From IMG/VR virus record IMGVR_UViG_3300023487_000099: 5,393 nt of DNA; one strand, 5' to 3'. The stretch comes from a virus (taxonomy: Duplodnaviria > Heunggongvirae > Uroviricota > Caudoviricetes). The notes under the pieces were generated by a model. That model was not told the origin of the DNA. It searched no databases and saw only the letters and a program-made list of their open reading frames with translations. Shown here in pieces: positions 1 through 5,393 of this stretch; position 1 is the stretch's first letter; each line of letters begins with the position of its first letter. The translations under genes and the position numbers were made by a program.

Positions 1-2
1 TG

Positions 3-503
<501 letters not shown>

Positions 504-569: not shown

Positions 570-1169
570 ATGCGTAAAGTTTGTGCAGCCATTTTGTCCG
601 CAGCCATCTGTCTGGCCGTATCCGGTGCGCCTGCATGGGCGTCTGAACATCAGTCCACGCTGAGCGCGGGGTATCTTCATGCCTTGACGAACGTTCCCGG
701 CAGCGATGATCTTAACGGGATTAACGTGAAATACCGTTATGAGTTTACGGACACACTGGGGCTGGTGACGTCATTCAGCTATGCAGGAGACAAGAATCGC
801 CAGCTGACCCGTTACAGCGATACCCGCTGGCATGAAGATTCCGTTCGTAACCGCTGGTTCAGCGTAATGGCGGGGCCGTCTGTGCGCGTGAATGAATGGT
901 TCAGCGCGTATGCGATGGCGGGTATGGCTTACAGCCGTGTGTCGACTTTCTCCGGGGATTATATCCGCGTAACTGACAACAAGGGGAAAACGCACGATGT
1001 GCTGACCGGAAGTGATGACGGTCGCCACAGCAACACGTCTCTGGCGTGGGGAGCTGGCGTGCAGTTTAACCCGACCGAATCCGTGGCCGTTGACGTCGCT
1101 TATGAAGGCTCCGGCAGCGGTGACTGGCGTACCAACAGTTTCATCGTTGGTGTCGGTTATAAATTCTGA
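570..1169 (+). CDS. lom: Lom outer-membrane protein (Ail/Lom/PagC/Rck family 8-stranded beta-barrel), 199 aa
   Basis: N-terminal signal peptide MRKVCAAILSAAICLAVSGAPAWA with an AWA|SE cleavage-like site. The C-terminus …AYEGSGSGDWRTNSFIVGVGYKF ends in the aromatic residue typical of OMP barrels and matches lambda Lom as I recall it. Position between J and stf is as in lambda. Good SD; stop TGA at 1167-1169. Confidence 0.92.
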   Translation: MRKVCAAILSAAICLAVSGAPAWASEHQSTLSAGYLHALTNVPGSDDLNGINVKYRYEFTDTLGLVTSFSYAGDKNRQLTRYSDTRWHEDSVRNRWFSVMAGPSVRVNEWFSAYAMAGMAYSRVSTFSGDYIRVTDNKGKTHDVLTGSDDGRHSNTSLAWGAGVQFNPTESVAVDVAYEGSGSGDWRTNSFIVGVGYKF

Positions 1170-1222: not shown

Positions 1223-1233
1223 GTGGGGTGAAT

Positions 1234-4200
1234 ATGGCAGTAAAGATTTCAGGTGTACTGAAAGACGGCACAGGAAAACCGGTACAGAACTGCACAATCC
1301 AGCTGAAAGCAAAACGTAACAGCACCACGGTGGTGGTGAACACGCTGGCCTCAGAAAATCCGGATGAAGCCGGGCGTTACAGCATGGACGTTGAGTACGG
1401 GCAGTACAGCGTTATTCTGTTGGTGGAGGGATTCCCGCCGTCACATGCCGGGACCATCACCGTGTATGAAGATTCCCGACCCGGTACGCTGAATGATTTT
1501 CTCGGTGCCATGACGGAGGATGATGCCCGTCCTGAGGCACTGCGCCGTTTTGAACTGATGGTGGAAGAGGTGGCGCGTAACGCGTCCGCGGTGGCACAGA
1601 ACACGGCAGCCGCGAAGAAGTCAGCCAGCGATGCCGGCACATCAGCCCGTGAGGCGGCAACCCATGCGACTGATGCTGCAGGCTCAGCAAGCGCAGCCAG
1701 CACGTCAGCCGGACAGGCCGCGTCGTCGGCTCAGTCAGCATCTTCCAGCGCAGGAACGGCATCAACAAAGGCCAGTGAAGCATCGAAAAGTGCTGCTGCT
1801 GCAGAGTCCTCAAAAAGCGCGGCAGCTACCAGTGCCGCTGCGGCGAAAACGTCAGAAACGAATGCGGCAGCGTCACAACAATCAGCAGCCACTTCTGCAT
1901 CCGCCGCGACCACGAAGGCGTCAGAAGCAGCCACCTCAGCCCGGGATGCGGCGGCCTCAAAAGAAACGAACGCATCATCGAGCGCCAGTAGTGCCGCTTC
2001 CTCGGCAACGGCGGCAGGCAATTCCGCGAAGGCGGCAAAGACGTCTGAGACAAACGCCAGGTCTTCTGAAACGGCAGCGGAACAGAGTGCCTCAGCTGCG
2101 GCAGGCTCAAAAACAGCGGCTGCGTCGTCTGCCAGTGCAGCGTCAACAAGTGCCGGGCAGGCCTCAGCCAGTGCTAGCGCCGCCGGAAAATCGGCAGAAA
2201 GCGCCGCATCGTCCGCTTCAACAGCCACAACGAAGGCTGGCGAAGCCACTGAACAGGCCAGCGCAGCAGCGAGGTCTGCTTCCGCAGCGAAGACATCCGA
2301 GACGAACGCGAAAGCGTCGGAAACCAGCGCAGAATCCTCAAAAACGGCTGCCGCATCGTCCGCCAGTTCGGCGGCGTCATCGGCATCATCGGCGTCTGCT
2401 TCAAAAGATGAGGCGACCAGACAGGCATCAGCAGCGAAAGGCAGCGCCACGACGGCATCCACGAAGGCGACAGAGGCAGCTGGTAGTGCGACGGCAGCAG
2501 CTCAGAGCAAAAGTACGGCAGAATCTGCAGCAACGCGCGCTGAGACAGCGGCAAAACGGGCAGAGGATATTGCATCCGCCGTGGCGCTTGAGGATGCGAG
2601 CACGACGAAAAAGGGGATAGTACAGCTCAGCAGTGCGACCAACAGCACGTCTGAAACGCTGGCGGCAACGCCAAAGGCAGTAAAAGCAGCCTATGACAAT
2701 GCAGAGAAACGTCTGCAGAAAGACCAGAACGGCGCTGATATACCTGATAAGGGACGCTTCCTGAACAACATTAACGCGGTCAGTAAAACAGACTTTGCTG
2801 ATAAGCGTGGTATGCGTTATGTGCGGGTTAACGCTCCTGCAGGTGCAACATCTGGAAAATATTACCCTGTTGCTGTTATGCGTTCTGCTGGCTCAGTAAG
2901 CGAACTGGCATCAAGGGTCATTATCACCACGGCAACGCGAACCGCAGGCGATCCGATGAATAACTGCGAGTTTAACGGATTTGTTATGCCTGGTGGCTGG
3001 ACTGACAGGGGGCGTTATGCTTATGGAATGTTCTGGCAATATCAAAACAATGAACGAGCCATCCACTCAATAATGATGAGTAATAAGGGCGATGATTTGC
3101 GCTCTGTGTTCTATGTTGATGGCGCTGCTTTCCCTGTTTTTGCGTTTATCGAAGATGGCCTGTCAATATCCGCACCTGGTGCTGATCTCGTTGTTAATGA
3201 TACGACCTATAAGTTTGGGGCAACAAATCCGGCGACTGAATGTATCGCGGCGGACGTTATCCTTGATTTTAAGAGTGGGCGTGGTTTTTATGAGTCTCAT
3301 TCGTTAATCGTTAACGATAACTTGTCGTGCAAAAAACTTTTTGCCACAGACGAAATTGTAGCGCGTGGTGGTAATCAGATTCGAATGATAGGTGGGGAGT
3401 ATGGGGCATTATGGCGTAATGATGGCGCTAAAACTTACCTGCTGCTTACCAATCAAGGTGATGTTTATGGTGGCTGGAATACATTAAGACCGTTTGCTAT
3501 TGATAACGCAACCGGCGAACTGGTTATTGGAACCAAACTGTCCGCAAGTCTGAACGGTAATGCATTAACAGCAACAAAGCTGCAAACGCCAAGACGGGTT
3601 TCTGGTGTTGAGTTTGATGGTTCCAAAGATATTACTTTAACCGCCGCGCATGTGGCTGCTTTTGCCAGAAGGGCAACGGATACATATGCCGATGCGGATG
3701 GGGGCGTTCCCTGGAATGCCGAATCAGGCGCTTATAAGGTCACCCGCTCTGGCGACAGCTATATTCTGGTTAACTTCTATACCGTAGTCGGAAGTTGCCG
3801 GACCCTGCAGATGAAGGCGCATTACAGAAATGGTGGTCTGTTCTACCGTTCTTCAAGAGACGGTTATGGTTTTGAGGAAGACTGGGCAGAAGTTTATACT
3901 TCGAAAAATCTTCCACCAGAAAGCTACCCAGTCGGCGCACCAATCCCGTGGCCATCAGATACCGTTCCGTCTGGTTATGCCCTGATGCAGGGGCAGACTT
4001 TTGACAAATCTGCCTACCCGAAACTTGCAGCCGCTTATCCGTCAGGCGTGATCCCTGATATGCGTGGCTGGACGATTAAGGGCAAGCCCGCCAGTGGTCG
4101 TGCCGTATTGTCACAGGAACAGGACGGCATTAAATCGCACACCCACAGCGCCAGCGCATCCAGTACGGATTTGGGGACGAAAACCACATCGTCGTTTGAT

Positions 4201-4566
4201 TACGGCACTAAATCCACGAATAACACTGGTGCGCATATCCATAGTGTTAGCGGTACGGCTGCTTCAGCCGGTGCACATACCCATTCGATGACATTTGTTT
4301 CAGGTGGTTCCAGTGGTGCTCCGGGAAGTGGATCACCTGATTATTCTAAATACAGTGTTAACACTTCTTCTGCAGGCGCTCATACGCACTCTGTATCGGG
4401 TACTGCTGCAAGCGCAGGTGCACACGCACATACTGTCGGTATTGGTGCTCATACGCACTCCGTTGCGATTGGTTCACATGGACATACCATCACCGTTAAC
4501 GCTGCTGGTAACGCGGAAAACACCGTCAAAAACATCGCATTTAACTATATTGTGAGGCTTGCATAA
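1234..4566 (+). CDS. stf: Side tail fibre protein Stf (long, ~1110 aa, Rac StfR-like)
   Basis: N-terminus [37 protein letters not shown]… is the conserved lambda Stf N-terminal domain. A conserved fibre motif [25 protein letters not shown] follows the repeat block. The C-terminal part has the collar-like motif GAPIPWPSD…[17 protein letters not shown], then His-X-His repeats, and ends …[11 protein letters not shown] as lambda Stf does. The track starts the ORF at GTG 1228, but ATG 1234 reproduces the lambda N-terminus and has GGGG upstream. Stop TAA at 4564-4566. Confidence 0.93.
1579..2605 (+). repeat. Ala/Ser/Thr-rich low-complexity imperfect tandem-repeat block inside stf (fibre shaft)
   Basis: About 340 codons are dominated by A/S/T/K/E. 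The heptapeptide KTSETNA recurs at nt 1848-1868, 2038-2058 and 2290-2310, and phrases such as [16 protein letters not shown] and TKA(S/G/T)EA recur. Hand-counted GC is about 65% in one 60-bp line (2161-2220), reflecting GCN/AGC codons. Confidence 0.7.
4138..4485 (+). repeat. Seven His-X-His motifs in the Stf C-terminal tip (predicted metal-binding needle domain)
   Basis: Translation contains SHTHS, GAHIHS, GAHTHS, GAHTHS, GAHAHT, GAHTHS and SHGHT, which is seven HxH motifs between nt 4138 and 4485. Confidence 0.7.
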
Positions 4567-5141
4567 TGGCATTCAGAATGAGTGAACAACCACGGACCAT
4601 AAAAATTTATAATCTGCTGGCCGGAACTAATGAATTTATTGGTGAAGGTGACGCATATATTCCGCCTCATACAGGTCTGCCAGCAAACAGTACCGATATT
4701 GCACCGCCAGATATTCCGGCTGGCTTTGTGGCTGTTTTCAACAGTGATGAGGCATCGTGGCATCTCGTTGAAGACCATCGGGGTAAAACGGTTTATGACG
4801 TAGCGTCAGGGGACGAGTTATTTATTTCTGAACTCGGTCCGTTACCGGAAAATGTTACCTGGTTATCGCCGGAAGGGGAGTTTCAGAAGTGGAACGGCAC
4901 AGCCTGGGTGAAGGATACGGAAGCAGAAAAACTGTTCCGGATCCGGGAGGCGGAAGAAACAAAAAACAGCCTGATGCAGGTAGCCAGTGAGCATATTGCG
5001 CCGCTTCAGGATGCTGCAGATCTGGAAATTGCAACGGAGGAAGAAATCTCGTTGCTGGAAGCATGGAAAAAGTATCGGGTATTGCTGAACCGTGTTGATA
5101 CGTCAACTTCACAGGATATTGAATGGCCAGCACTGCCGTAG
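4566..5141 (+). CDS. tfa: Tail fibre assembly protein Tfa (chaperone), 191 aa
   Basis: [54 protein letters not shown]… matches lambda Tfa nearly residue for residue as I recall it. The ATG at 4566-4568 overlaps the stf TAA (TAATG), with GAGG at 4554-4557. Stop TAG at 5139-5141. Confidence 0.9.
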
Positions 5142-5238
5142 GGTAAAACATATAAATTCTATAATTAGATGTATCTTTCCATTTACGGCAAGGAAGGGGG
5201 CTTGGAAGACGTAAAGCATCTCACACCGAGATTATTTT

Positions 5239-5393
5239 TTATATGTCAGGTGTCTGAAGTTTTGCTTTGGCTCTTAAAATGGTTTGCCGCGAGGTTTTGA
5301 ATTCCCGGGCAATGGCACTTATACTTACACTTGACTTAATTCGTTCGAATACCACCTGTTTCTGTTCTTCATTTAACACAGGTGGTCGACCAA
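5239..5393 (-). CDS. pin: Serine recombinase, Pin/Hin/Gin-like DNA invertase, C-terminal HTH domain only (3' end; gene continues beyond the window end)
   Basis: Minus-strand translation of 5391→5239 reads [50 protein letters not shown]. The GRP…helix-turn-helix tail is typical of small serine recombinases and invertases, and it is convergent with tfa, as pinR follows stfR-tfaR in Rac to my recollection. Only 50 codons are visible, so the call rests on the C-terminal domain alone. Confidence 0.72.

What the first reader, a model, noticed from the sequence alone, without database searches (positions are those of the whole stretch)
4566..5393. Convergent Pin-like invertase directly after stf-tfa: possible tail-fibre (host-range) switching, or a decayed remnant
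Only about 97 bp separate the tfa stop (5141) from the stop of a minus-strand serine recombinase whose C-terminus resembles Pin/Gin/Cin/Hin invertases. In Mu, P1 and e14 such invertases flip a segment carrying alternative fibre C-termini and tfa genes. In this window only one tfa orientation is present and I could not recognise a 26-bp crossover site by eye, so the recombinase may act on a segment beyond the window, on a site inside stf, or be an orphan.
Basis: partly seen in the sequence, partly recalled or inferred. Interest (0 to 1): 0.5.

Follow-up and report, generated by a model that had tools for sequence, protein, structure and literature searches.

The report
pinQ/pinR recombinase, not fibre switch
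The gene end after the tail-fibre genes is the well-known E. coli prophage recombinase pinQ/pinR, which descends from transposon and plasmid resolvases and does not flip the neighbouring tail-fibre genes, so the arrangement is ordinary.

Summary
A minus-strand ORF ends at 5239, 97 bp later, and runs off the window. Its 50 visible residues are a resolvase-type HTH and match E. coli PinQ/PinR at 49/50.

The fibre-switch reading does not hold. There is no inverted tfa'/stf' cassette, no inverted repeat above chance and no gix/hix/pix-like site. Eighty related phage loci are all collinear. The tfa–spacer–pin junction is intact in 2,662 E. coli genomes, against 2,753 that carry pin. The 5' end of pin points away from the fibre genes, towards ydfK and the prophage end.

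PinQ/PinR is only 35–38% identical to Gin/Cin/Hin/PinE. It is 60–84% identical to more than 1,500 plasmid homologues and to resolvases paired with Tn3-family transposases. Those relatives carry a conserved res-like site (28- and 34-bp-type dyads of TGTCCGAAA) just upstream of the gene. The prophage keeps one degenerate copy, outside the window.

Every prophage copy examined has Cys where Tn3 resolvase has its catalytic Arg71, yet the gene is under purifying selection.

The only reported activity is in trans: inversion of the e14 P segment (Kirigo et al., NAR 2025). Direct catalysis by PinQ was not shown.

The arrangement is already known; interest is low to moderate.

The parts
1..503 (+). 3' end of the tail tip gene J (context only)
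   Evidence: In L001 the annotated gpJ ends at 10503, which is window 503.
570..1169 (+). lom (Ail/Lom outer-membrane protein; context only)
   Evidence: ORF of 199 aa, annotated as Ail/Lom in all best hits.
1234..4566 (+). stf, side tail fibre gene. It has a single orientation and no internal recombination site.
   Evidence: ORF 1228-4566; the annotated start in L001 corresponds to window 1234. No pix/hix-like site and no res-profile hit (best E=1.3). The 3' part is mosaic among relatives, with breakpoints near 3925, 4265 and 4380, always collinear.
4566..5141 (+). tfa, tail fibre assembly gene, single copy
   Evidence: 191 aa, Caudo_TAP E=1.2e-42. The last ~110-135 bp (from ~5005/5030) belong to a block shared by all 80 related loci. 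The rest is exchanged among alleles.
5142..5238 (.). 97-bp tfa-pin spacer. The part from about 5194-5200 to 5238 is the 3' tail of the plasmid-homologous recombinase module. A 5-bp hairpin (5218-5232) is followed by a T-run on the + strand.
   Evidence: Homology to the plasmid modules L003/L004 extends 39-45 bp past the pin stop. The hairpin appears in both the MFE and centroid folds, but the region is not more structured than shuffles (z=-1.3) and the terminator scan did not call it. A terminator role is inference only.
5239..5393 (-). 3' end (last 50 codons plus stop) of a pinQ/pinR-type small serine recombinase gene. The visible part is the arm (GRPP) and the HTH_7 DNA-binding domain. The gene continues beyond the window.
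   Evidence: Translation. HTH_7 E=2e-10. 49/50 aa and 251/252 nt identical to L001 over 5142-5393. The full-length 196-aa homologue has Resolvase plus HTH_7 domains.

Best explanation
The minus-strand ORF is the 3' end of pinQ/pinR, the small serine recombinase gene that sits with ydfK/ynaE at the right end of the late region of Rac/Qin-type lambdoid prophages and of viable lambdoid phages such as 2H10. It is not part of a tail-fibre inversion switch and rearranges nothing at this locus.

Shown: (1) it belongs to a clade of res-associated resolvases, namely Tn3-family TnpR and plasmid multimer-resolution enzymes, not to the Gin/Cin/Hin/Pin invertases. (2) That clade has a conserved res-like site directly upstream of the gene: a 28-bp-type dyad and a 34-bp-type dyad of TGTCCGAAA half-sites, plus further half-sites overlapping the promoter. 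(3) The phage genome holds exactly one copy of this site, degenerate, upstream of pin and outside the window, and none in stf or tfa. (4) All prophage copies have Cys at the position of the catalytic Arg71 of Tn3/gamma-delta resolvase. (5) The protein is nevertheless under purifying selection. (6) Fibre diversity among relatives comes from collinear mosaic exchange of stf-3'/tfa-5' segments.

Inferred: the gene was captured from a plasmid or transposon res-resolvase module and has been exapted. With one weak site per genome and an altered active site, it is unlikely to be an efficient resolvase or a local invertase. It most likely persists as a DNA-binding protein that acts elsewhere. The one published activity is promoting inversion of the e14 P segment in trans, which creates StfE2 and blocks T2 adsorption. 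Whether PinQ catalyses that inversion itself or works through PinE is open.
For: - Identity and context: whole-window matches at 94.8-97.8% identity in the 30 best E. coli records, annotated J-lom-stf-tfa-pinQ/pinR. The downstream neighbours are ydfK, ynfT and the prophage end at ydfJ. In phage 2H10 they are a ydfK-like gene, dinI and int.
- No local switch: no inverted repeats above chance in the window, L001 or L002. The same settings recover 161/158-nt U/U' repeats and the 58-nt gix repeat in D108. No pix/hix site.
- All homologous segments in 80 IMG/VR loci are collinear. The junction is intact in 2,662 genomes against 2,753 with pin.
- Published BLAST surveys found inversions only in e14, not in Qin or rac (PMC12529663).
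- Family: 35-38% identity to Gin/Cin/Hin-type invertases in phages. 60-84% identity to more than 1,500 plasmid homologues, which sit in maintenance regions next to a ParE/RHH toxin-antitoxin pair, parAB or rep.
- A divergent Tn3-family tnpA lies immediately upstream in L008 and in 22 of 79 loci from GTDB (Genome Taxonomy Database) species-representative genomes.
- res: conserved dyads at -115/-98 and -75/-52 in 61 of 79 loci. An nhmmer profile built only from plasmid/transposon sites hits once in the 46-kb phage 2H10 (E=2.9e-10, directly 5' of pin), once in L001 (E=8e-8), and nowhere in the window.
- Degeneracy: prophage half-sites score -2.5 to 8 bits against 11-16 bits for nearly all plasmid half-sites. 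The res region is 88.8% identical between two prophage types whose CDS is 99.2% identical. The recognition helix is conserved across the clade.
- Cys76: present in 82/82 prophage/phage copies and in a second prophage lineage at 85% identity. Arg is present in 112/120 homologues and in 70/79 GTDB loci. Cys occurs only in the Escherichia/Shigella prophage type.
- Tn3 R71A/K mutants show no recombination and about 1000-fold lower cleavage (PMC2794168).
- Selection: 16 synonymous against 6 nonsynonymous variants (pN/pS 0.12). dN/dS is 0.35 between the two Cys76 lineages. No internal stop codons.
Against: - The window shows only the last 50 codons. Residue 76, the catalytic Ser and the res-like site are inferred from relatives that are 97-99% identical, not seen in this sequence.
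- Kirigo et al. (PMC12529663) report that over-produced PinQ raises e14 P-segment inversion from 30% to 88% and call the enzyme active. If PinQ catalyses this directly, Cys76 is tolerated and 'altered active site' overstates the defect.
- By whole-protein score PinQ is somewhat closer to Gin (E=1.9e-28) than to gamma-delta or Tn3 resolvase (E~2e-21), and it has the invertase-like GRPP arm.
- The e14 pix half-site (TCTCCCAAA) scores 3.7 bits on the clade matrix, about as well as the prophage's own half-sites. Binding to pix is therefore plausible.
- The third res subsite could not be assigned cleanly.
- The selection estimates rest on few substitutions.
Confidence: 0.8

Rival explanations
1. 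PinQ/PinR is a fully active DNA invertase whose natural substrate lies elsewhere in the chromosome. It directly catalyses inversion of the 1,797-bp P segment of prophage e14 between pix sites, producing chimeric StfE2, which blocks T2 adsorption. On this reading the gene next to tfa is a trans-acting anti-phage switch operator.
For: PMC12529663 reports several results. PinQ over-production raises inversion from 30% to 88%. Survivors in T2 lytic zones carry the inversion. Deleting stfP or stfE abolishes the effect. T2 induces pinQ. The catalytic Ser11, Tyr7, Arg9 and Arg73 are present in full-length relatives. The pix half-site matches the clade consensus at 7 of 9 positions (3.7 bits). The protein is under purifying selection.
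Against: No purified-protein assay or catalytic-site mutant is reported. Table S4 has no PinQ over-production in a delta-pinE background, and the delta-pinE strain is locked in one orientation despite chromosomal pinQ and pinR. Cys replaces the Arg71 equivalent, whose mutation abolishes recombination in Tn3 resolvase. The clade's cognate sites have res-type geometry (28/34 bp) with accessory dyads, not 26-bp Din-type sites with a Fis enhancer. Identity to PinE/Gin is only 35-38%.
Confidence: 0.35
2. There is a local tail-fibre host-range switch. The recombinase inverts a segment carrying the stf C-terminus and tfa, using a site inside stf and a site near its own gene, as in Mu G, P1 C or e14 P.
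For: Gene adjacency only (tfa followed by a serine recombinase), plus the precedent of Mu, P1 and e14 (for the D108 layout).
Against: No alternative cassette within 10 kb on either side in a chromosome or in a complete phage genome. No inverted repeats or crossover-like sites, with the D108 positive control working under the same settings. Only one res-like site per phage genome. 80 of 80 loci are collinear and the junction is fixed in about 97% of pin-bearing genomes. The recombinase faces tfa with its 3' end. A published survey found no inversions in Qin or rac.
Confidence: 0.02
3. It is a working resolvase for the phage itself. Acting at the single res-like site upstream of pin, it resolves dimeric circular phage genomes or tandem double lysogens into monomers, as its plasmid relatives do for plasmid multimers.
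For: Clade relatives sit in plasmid maintenance regions and in Tn3-family transposons with a conserved res. The prophage keeps one recognisable res-like site in the right place (E=2.9e-10 and 8e-8). The site overlaps the promoter region, as in autoregulated tnpR genes. One 42-kb circular 'plasmid' record carries a 99.5% identical PinQ (H111).
Against: The half-sites are strongly degenerate although the recognition helix is unchanged. The site diverges about 13 times faster than the CDS between prophage types. It is interrupted by IS elements in some lineages (L033, L077). The catalytic Arg71 equivalent is lost in every copy.
Confidence: 0.1
4. It is an orphan with no function: a hitch-hiking relic of a captured resolvase module, widespread only because Rac/Qin-type prophages are widespread.
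For: Loss of a catalytic Arg, a degenerate cognate site, no partner site and IS insertions upstream. The prophages concerned are often cryptic.
Against: No frameshift or stop codon in 82 copies. pN/pS is 0.12 within the lineage and dN/dS is 0.35 between two lineages 15% apart that both keep Cys76. The gene is also present in viable phages. Phenotypes are reported for deletion and over-production.
Confidence: 0.13

Closest known systems
PinQ / PinR of E. coli K-12 cryptic prophages Qin and Rac (gene order stfR-tfaR-pinR-ynaE and its Qin counterpart)
   Same: 49/50 residues identical in the visible part. The gene order J-lom-stf-tfa-pin(-)-ydfK is the same and the hits are annotated as pinQ/pinR. 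This is the same gene.
   Different: One substitution (Ser for Gly in KSGVS). Here stf and lom are intact, whereas my own recollection (not a tool result) is that lomR in K-12 Rac is interrupted by IS5.
Tn3-family TnpR resolvases and plasmid multimer-resolution resolvases with a res site (gamma-delta/Tn3 paradigm: subsites I, II, III of 28, 34 and 25 bp)
   Same: Domain order is Resolvase plus HTH_7. The clade relatives are 60-84% identical. 22 of 79 loci from GTDB (Genome Taxonomy Database) species-representative genomes have a divergent Tn3-family tnpA. The conserved upstream dyads have the inner spacing of 28-bp and 34-bp sites. The half-site TGTCCGAAA is close to the gamma-delta/Tn3 site I half-sites (the latter recalled from memory). 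The site overlaps the promoter.
   Different: Only 32% identical to gamma-delta resolvase itself. The third subsite is unclear. In the prophage the site is degenerate, single and unaccompanied by tnpA, and Arg71 is Cys.
Din family of Fis-dependent DNA invertases (Gin of Mu/D108, Cin of P1, Hin of Salmonella, PinE of e14)
   Same: It is a small serine recombinase with a GRPP arm, encoded next to phage tail-fibre genes. The best solved-structure match is Gin (E=1.9e-28). It is reported to promote inversion of the e14 P segment (PMC12529663).
   Different: 34-38% identity, while as I recall Din members are about 60-70% identical to one another. There are no 26-bp inverted crossover sites and no invertible segment. 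The gene orientation is opposite to Mu/D108. The recognition helix differs (SRQTILRA against ALSTLYKK). The clade's cognate sites are res-type.
RK2/RP4 par locus (ParA resolvase with a multimer resolution site, divergent from the parDE toxin-antitoxin pair); comparison from memory
   Same: The nearest plasmid homologue (pAPEC-O1-ColBM, 84% identical) is transcribed divergently from a ParE/RHH toxin-antitoxin pair, with the res-like site in between.
   Different: Sequence relatedness to ParA of RK2 was not tested. The prophage copy has no toxin-antitoxin neighbour.

Membership tests
Din-type Fis-dependent DNA invertases (Gin/Cin/Hin/PinE) | Close sequence relationship to Gin/Cin/Hin/Pin | tested here: not met
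   31.7-39.4% identity to the phage-encoded invertases among the hits listed (35.5% to gin, cin and hin; 36.8% to pinL), with a gap between the >=95% PinQ group and everything else. 38% identity to PinE according to PMC12529663. In the visible C-terminus, 9/50 identical to Gin and 15/50 to Hin.
Din-type Fis-dependent DNA invertases (Gin/Cin/Hin/PinE) | Two ~26-bp crossover sites in inverted orientation flanking a segment, one next to the 5' end of the invertase gene | tested here: not met
   No hix/gix/pix-like sites above chance. No inverted repeats above chance in the window, in the 25-kb chromosomal locus or in the phage locus. The positive control on D108 finds them.
Din-type Fis-dependent DNA invertases (Gin/Cin/Hin/PinE) | Alternative, oppositely oriented fibre C-terminus and tfa cassettes inside the segment | tested here: not met
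   There is a single stf and a single tfa. Nothing fibre-like lies beyond pin. 80 of 80 related loci are collinear.
Din-type Fis-dependent DNA invertases (Gin/Cin/Hin/PinE) | Recombinational enhancer with two Fis sites in the 5' part of the invertase gene; Fis dependence | not testable with these tools
   The Fis consensus is too degenerate to score reliably, and the 5' part of the gene is outside the window.
res-site resolvases (Tn3-family TnpR / plasmid multimer resolution) | N-terminal serine-recombinase catalytic domain plus C-terminal HTH_7 | tested here: met
   PF00239 at E=1.1e-35 and PF02796 at E=3.7e-11 in the full-length homologue. PF02796 at E=2e-10 in the window fragment.
res-site resolvases (Tn3-family TnpR / plasmid multimer resolution) | Multi-subsite res directly upstream of the gene, made of inverted half-sites with different spacings | tested here: met
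   Met for the clade: dyads of 9+8+9 and 9+14+9 bp (28- and 34-bp-type) at fixed positions in 61 of 79 loci. The prophage copy is recognisable (nhmmer E=8e-8 and 2.9e-10) but degenerate, and it lies outside the window. The third subsite is ambiguous.
res-site resolvases (Tn3-family TnpR / plasmid multimer resolution) | Association with a Tn3-family transposase or with plasmid maintenance genes | tested here: inconclusive
   True of relatives: a divergent tnpA in L008 and in 22 of 79 GTDB loci, and a toxin-antitoxin pair, parAB or rep as neighbours on plasmids. Not true of the prophage copy, whose neighbours are tfa and ydfK.
res-site resolvases (Tn3-family TnpR / plasmid multimer resolution) | Complete set of catalytic residues (Tn3 numbering Y6, R8, S10, D36, R68, R71) | tested here: not met
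   The Y, R, S and R68 equivalents are present. D36 is Glu throughout the clade. The R71 equivalent is Cys76 in all 82 prophage/phage copies and Arg in the plasmid and transposon members. Not visible in the window itself.
PinQ/PinR (Qin/Rac prophage recombinase) | Near-identity of sequence and the same gene neighbourhood | tested here: met
   49/50 aa and 251/252 nt over 5142-5393 against L001. Annotated pinQ/pinR in the best genome hits with J-lom-stf-tfa upstream.

The most novel reading that the evidence does not exclude
PinQ/PinR, carried by about half of all sequenced E. coli, is an exapted resolvase. It came from a Tn3-family or plasmid res-resolvase module, lost a catalytic arginine (Arg71 to Cys76) and let its own res decay. 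It is nevertheless kept by selection as a DNA-binding factor. On this reading the reported 'PinQ inversion' of the e14 P segment would be catalysed by PinE, with PinQ acting as a modulator through site binding, mixed synapses or regulation. That would revise the mechanism of the first 'recombinase-activated' anti-phage system.
Probability: 0.3. Interest if true: 0.55.

Novelty: already known. Interest (0 to 1): 0.27.

Why it matters
As a genome feature it does not matter much. stf-tfa followed by a convergent pinQ/pinR is the standard right end of Rac/Qin-type prophages, is present in about half of complete E. coli genomes, and is not a host-range switch.

Two by-products may be useful. First, annotators and readers should not assume that every serine recombinase next to tail-fibre genes is a Gin-like invertase. 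This one belongs with transposon and plasmid resolvases and has its own vestigial res. Second, the Cys at the Arg71 position and the res-type cognate site sit uneasily with the recent claim that PinQ is the active invertase of the e14 P segment. That tension can be settled with simple point mutants.

Tried and rejected
- Searched for pix (TTCTCCCAAACCAA, up to 3 mismatches) and a hix/gix core (AAACCNNGGTTT, up to 2 mismatches). Hits were at or below chance and none lay near stf, tfa or pin.
- Inverted-repeat scans of the window, the 10-kb chromosomal region and the phage region gave only pairs of 29-32 nt or less at 70-88% complementarity, typical of chance. None was shared in a meaningful position.
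- The promoter/terminator scan of the spacer and the pin upstream region gave no terminator call in the spacer. Folding shows only a weak 5-bp hairpin (z=-1.3), so I make no firm terminator claim.
- Two loci whose homology breaks inside the res-like region (L033, L077) looked at first like products of res-site recombination. They are IS insertions, an IS903-like end and an IS66-family element with its TnpB and orf1.
- I looked for a lambdoid phage with a genuine fibre switch as a contrast. mEp237 (phi80-like) has a Din-type invertase next to attP but no evident invertible fibre segment, so D108 served as the positive control instead.
- I tried to assign a third res subsite with 25-bp geometry. 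The GTAC palindrome makes the half-site orientation ambiguous, so this is left open.
- I searched the Kirigo et al. main text and supplement for a PinQ catalytic mutant, purified protein, or PinQ over-production in delta-pinE. None was found.
- A serine-integrase role, as in Ralstonia RSM phages (34.6% identical), was rejected. The phages and prophages here have their own tyrosine integrase and excisionase.
Full report
**1. What is in the window**

The window reads as follows:
- the 3' end of J (1-503)
- lom (570-1169)
- stf (1234-4566)
- tfa (4566-5141; Caudo_TAP E=1.2e-42)
- a 97-bp spacer (5142-5238)
- on the minus strand, the last 50 codons and stop of an ORF that runs off the window (5239-5393)

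The 50 residues ([50 protein letters not shown]) match Pfam HTH_7, the resolvase helix-turn-helix, at E=2e-10. No inverted repeat in the window exceeds about 24 nt at 71-88% complementarity. No e14 pix-like half-site is found with up to 3 mismatches.

**2. Identity and surroundings**

The whole window matches E. coli chromosomes at 94.8-97.8% identity in the 30 best records listed. The genes there are annotated J, lom, stfR/Q, tfaR/Q and pinR/pinQ. 1,192 of 5,426 complete genomes hold at least 80% of the window. Viable lambdoid phages (2H10, PhiR34_1, Kati, Turner, mEp460) have the same arrangement.

In a Qin-site prophage (L001) the recombinase is 196 aa, and beyond it lie ydfK, ynfT and the prophage end at ydfJ. 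In phage 2H10 it is followed by a ydfK-like gene, dinI and int. The visible fragment is 49/50 identical to that PinQ, and the DNA over 5142-5393 is 251/252 identical. So this is pinQ/pinR, a gene known from E. coli K-12.

**3. Is there a fibre switch here?**

No, on five independent grounds.

(a) There is no second tfa or stf cassette within 10 kb in a chromosome, or anywhere in a complete phage genome.

(b) There are no inverted repeats above chance around the genes. With identical settings, the D108 G segment gives 161- and 158-nt U/U' repeats and the 58-nt repeat holding the gix sites.

(c) In 80 IMG/VR loci encoding a PinQ at least 99% identical, every segment homologous to the window is collinear and none is inverted.

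(d) The junction (tfa 3' end, spacer, pin 3' end; window 5030-5393) is intact in 2,662 complete E. coli genomes. The pin gene with its upstream region is found in 2,753. The authors of PMC12529663 likewise found inversions only in e14, not in Qin or rac.

(e) The orientation is wrong. In D108, gin starts 55 bp beyond the right inverted repeat and reads away from the invertible segment. Here the 3' end of pin faces tfa and the 5' end faces ydfK.

What does vary among relatives is the stf 3' part and the tfa 5' part. These are replaced by other alleles at recurrent breakpoints (about 3925, 4265, 4380 and 5005/5030), always in the same orientation. Fibre diversity at this locus comes from mosaic exchange, not inversion.

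**4. What kind of recombinase is it?**

The full-length protein has Resolvase and HTH_7 domains. Its best solved-structure match is Gin (E=1.9e-28), followed by gamma-delta and Tn3 resolvases (E about 2e-21).

Among phage records there is a sharp gap. Eleven records are at least 95% identical, all E. coli lambdoid phages, and one lies between 60 and 80%. The remaining 219 records are all below 60%. The Gin, Cin and Hin-type invertases listed there are 35-37% identical to PinQ.

Plasmids tell a different story. 1,584 records carry a homologue, mostly at 60-84% identity. The large protein database shows the same continuum across Enterobacterales and beyond. On plasmids the gene sits in maintenance regions:
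- divergent from a ParE/RHH toxin-antitoxin pair in pAPEC-O1-ColBM
- near parAB in an Erwinia plasmid
- next to rep in a 7-kb Proteus plasmid

In a Klebsiella michiganensis plasmid, a Tn3-family transposase is transcribed divergently 159 bp upstream. A scan of GTDB (Genome Taxonomy Database) species-representative genomes gave 79 loci, of which 22 have that same divergent tnpA. The clade is therefore one of transposon and plasmid resolvases.

**5. The cognate site**

Aligning the regions upstream of the gene from prophage, phage and plasmids shows a conserved block of about 130 bp ending at the start codon. In the plasmid and transposon members it contains:
- TGTCCGAAA-N8-TTTCGKACA at -115 to -90
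- TGTCCGAAA-N14-TTTCGKACA at -75 to -44
- one or two further half-sites around -33 and -21, with a TATAAT between

 With the usual 12-bp definition of half-sites, the two dyads have the geometry of the 28-bp site I and the 34-bp site II of Tn3/gamma-delta res. That comparison is from my own knowledge of those sites. 61 of 79 GTDB loci keep at least 3 of the 4 half-sites with 2 or fewer mismatches.

An nhmmer profile built only from nine plasmid and transposon sites finds exactly one significant match in the 46-kb genome of phage 2H10 (24989-25091, E=2.9e-10, directly 5' of pin). It finds one in L001 (E=8e-8). It finds nothing in the window (best E=1.3). So the phage has a single res-like site, next to pin and outside the window, and no partner in stf or tfa. 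A single site cannot support inversion or deletion within one genome copy.

**6. Two signs of functional change in the prophage lineage**

First, the half-sites are degenerate. They score -2.5 to 8 bits on the clade matrix, against 11-16 bits for nearly all plasmid half-sites. The recognition helix is essentially unchanged across the clade (…[11 protein letters not shown][TS]RQTILR…). Between two prophage types, the 125 bp of res-like sequence are 88.8% identical while the CDS is 99.2% identical. IS elements interrupt the region in some lineages (L033, L077).

Second, the Arg that aligns with Arg71 of Tn3/gamma-delta resolvase (KLDRLGR) is Cys76 (TGT instead of CGT). This holds in all 82 prophage and phage copies examined. 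It also holds in a second prophage lineage whose protein is only 85% identical (L095). It is Arg in 112 of the 120 best database homologues and in 70 of 79 GTDB loci. The eight Cys loci are all of the Escherichia/Shigella prophage type: five are on Escherichia or Shigella records and three are on MAG contigs that are probably E. coli contamination (L150, L153, L154; see noticed in passing). These eight also have the poorest half-sites. In Tn3 resolvase, R71A and R71K abolish recombination and lower single-strand cleavage about 1000-fold (PMC2794168).

The gene is nevertheless not decaying. There are no stop codons in 82 copies. Variation is 16 synonymous against 6 nonsynonymous changes (pN/pS about 0.12). 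dN/dS is 0.35 between the two Cys76 lineages. The numbers are small but point to constraint.

**7. What it most likely does**

Shown: the gene is pinQ/pinR. It is not linked to an invertible fibre segment. It derives from a res-resolvase clade. It keeps one weak res-like site. It has an altered catalytic pocket and is conserved.

Published: Kirigo et al. (NAR 2025, PMC12529663) report the following:
- Over-produced PinQ raises inversion of the 1,797-bp e14 P segment from 30% to 88%.
- The inverted form encodes StfE2, which lowers T2 adsorption.
- T2 induces pinQ.

That paper has no purified-protein assay, no catalytic mutant and no PinQ over-production in a delta-pinE background. It notes that delta-pinE locks the segment although pinQ and pinR are present.

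Inferred: the recombinase does nothing to its neighbours stf and tfa. It acts, if at all, in trans. Given Cys76 and res-type cognate sites, direct catalysis of P inversion is uncertain. The e14 pix half-site (TCTCCCAAA) matches the clade consensus at 7 of 9 positions, about as well as the prophage's own sites, so binding there is plausible. The pix dyad spacing is 2 bp shorter than that of dyad I.

I put about 0.8 on the composite statement 'pinQ/pinR of resolvase descent, no local switch, acts elsewhere if at all'. Within it, I put roughly 0.35 on direct trans-invertase activity and 0.3 on a modulator or exapted role.

**8. Comparison and novelty**

The arrangement is already known (stfR-tfaR-pinR in K-12 Rac and its Qin counterpart) and very common. 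It works unlike Mu G, P1 C or e14 P. Membership of the Din invertase family fails on sequence distance, crossover sites, cassette structure and orientation. Membership of the res-resolvase kind is met for domains and site architecture. It is met only in relatives for transposon or plasmid association, and it fails for the complete catalytic set.

The resolvase ancestry, the vestigial res and the fixed Arg-to-Cys change were not mentioned in the papers I could read. They create a testable tension with the published mechanism. That is the only part with some interest.

**9. Limits**

Everything about the catalytic domain and the res-like site comes from relatives, not from this window. Site III is unresolved. 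The selection estimates are rough. The effect of Cys at the Arg71 position is extrapolated from Tn3 resolvase.

Noticed in passing
window 3925-5030 (stf 3' part and tfa 5' part), compared with L014-L093: Among 80 loci with near-identical pin, the stf C-terminal region and most of tfa are replaced by other alleles at recurrent breakpoints (~3925, 4265, 4380, 5005/5030). The last ~110 bp of tfa, the spacer and pin form a constant block. This is a classic mosaic exchange of receptor-binding modules.
   Followed up: partly
window ~4290-4530 (Stf C-terminus): There are repeated His-rich motifs ([38 protein letters not shown]). The underlying DNA repeats are at 4375-4394 and 4444-4463. They resemble the HxH repeats of other phage fibre tips.
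   Followed up: no
window 1600-2650 (stf N-terminal third): A long Ala/Ser-rich, internally repetitive coding stretch produces many long spurious ORFs in other frames and on the opposite strand (for example 1631-2620 +, 1731-2462 -). These are by-products of composition, not genes.
   Followed up: no
L033 ~540-652; L077 1-1045; L052 upstream of pin: IS elements are inserted in or near the res-like region. An IS903-like end removes the left half of dyad I (L033). An IS66-family element sits between dyads I and II (L077). IS1 lies ~305 bp upstream (L052).
   Followed up: yes
L001 15990-16163 (minus strand; between ydfK and pin): The intergenic region further upstream of the res-like site is also well conserved among prophages. 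It contains repeated TTTTCCAC motifs (…CATTTTTCCACTTTAACAACATTTTGCTCCACTTTTCCACGACC…) and two short hairpins after ydfK. Their function is unknown.
   Followed up: no
L003 3941-5591 (pAPEC-O1-ColBM): The closest plasmid homologue (84% identical, Arg at position 76, perfect TGTCCGAAA dyads) is divergent from a ParE/RHH toxin-antitoxin pair. The layout is reminiscent of the RK2 parCBA/parDE stability locus.
   Followed up: partly
L150, L153, L154 (contigs binned as Alistipes, Draconibacterium, Caldithrix): E. coli prophage-type pin (Cys76) appears on short contigs of unrelated MAGs. This is probably contamination. The same caveat applies to the 'trematode' PinQ hits quoted in PMC12529663.
   Followed up: no
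L175 5998-6546 (phage mEp237): This phi80-like lambdoid phage carries a Din-type invertase (35% identical to PinQ) right next to attP, with no evident invertible fibre segment. It is another 'orphan' invertase in the same genomic neighbourhood.
   Followed up: no
H111, NZ_CP141086.1 (42,027-bp circular 'plasmid' of E. coli): The record carries a PinQ 99.5% identical and has the size of a lambdoid phage genome. It may be a circularised phage or a phage-plasmid.
   Followed up: no
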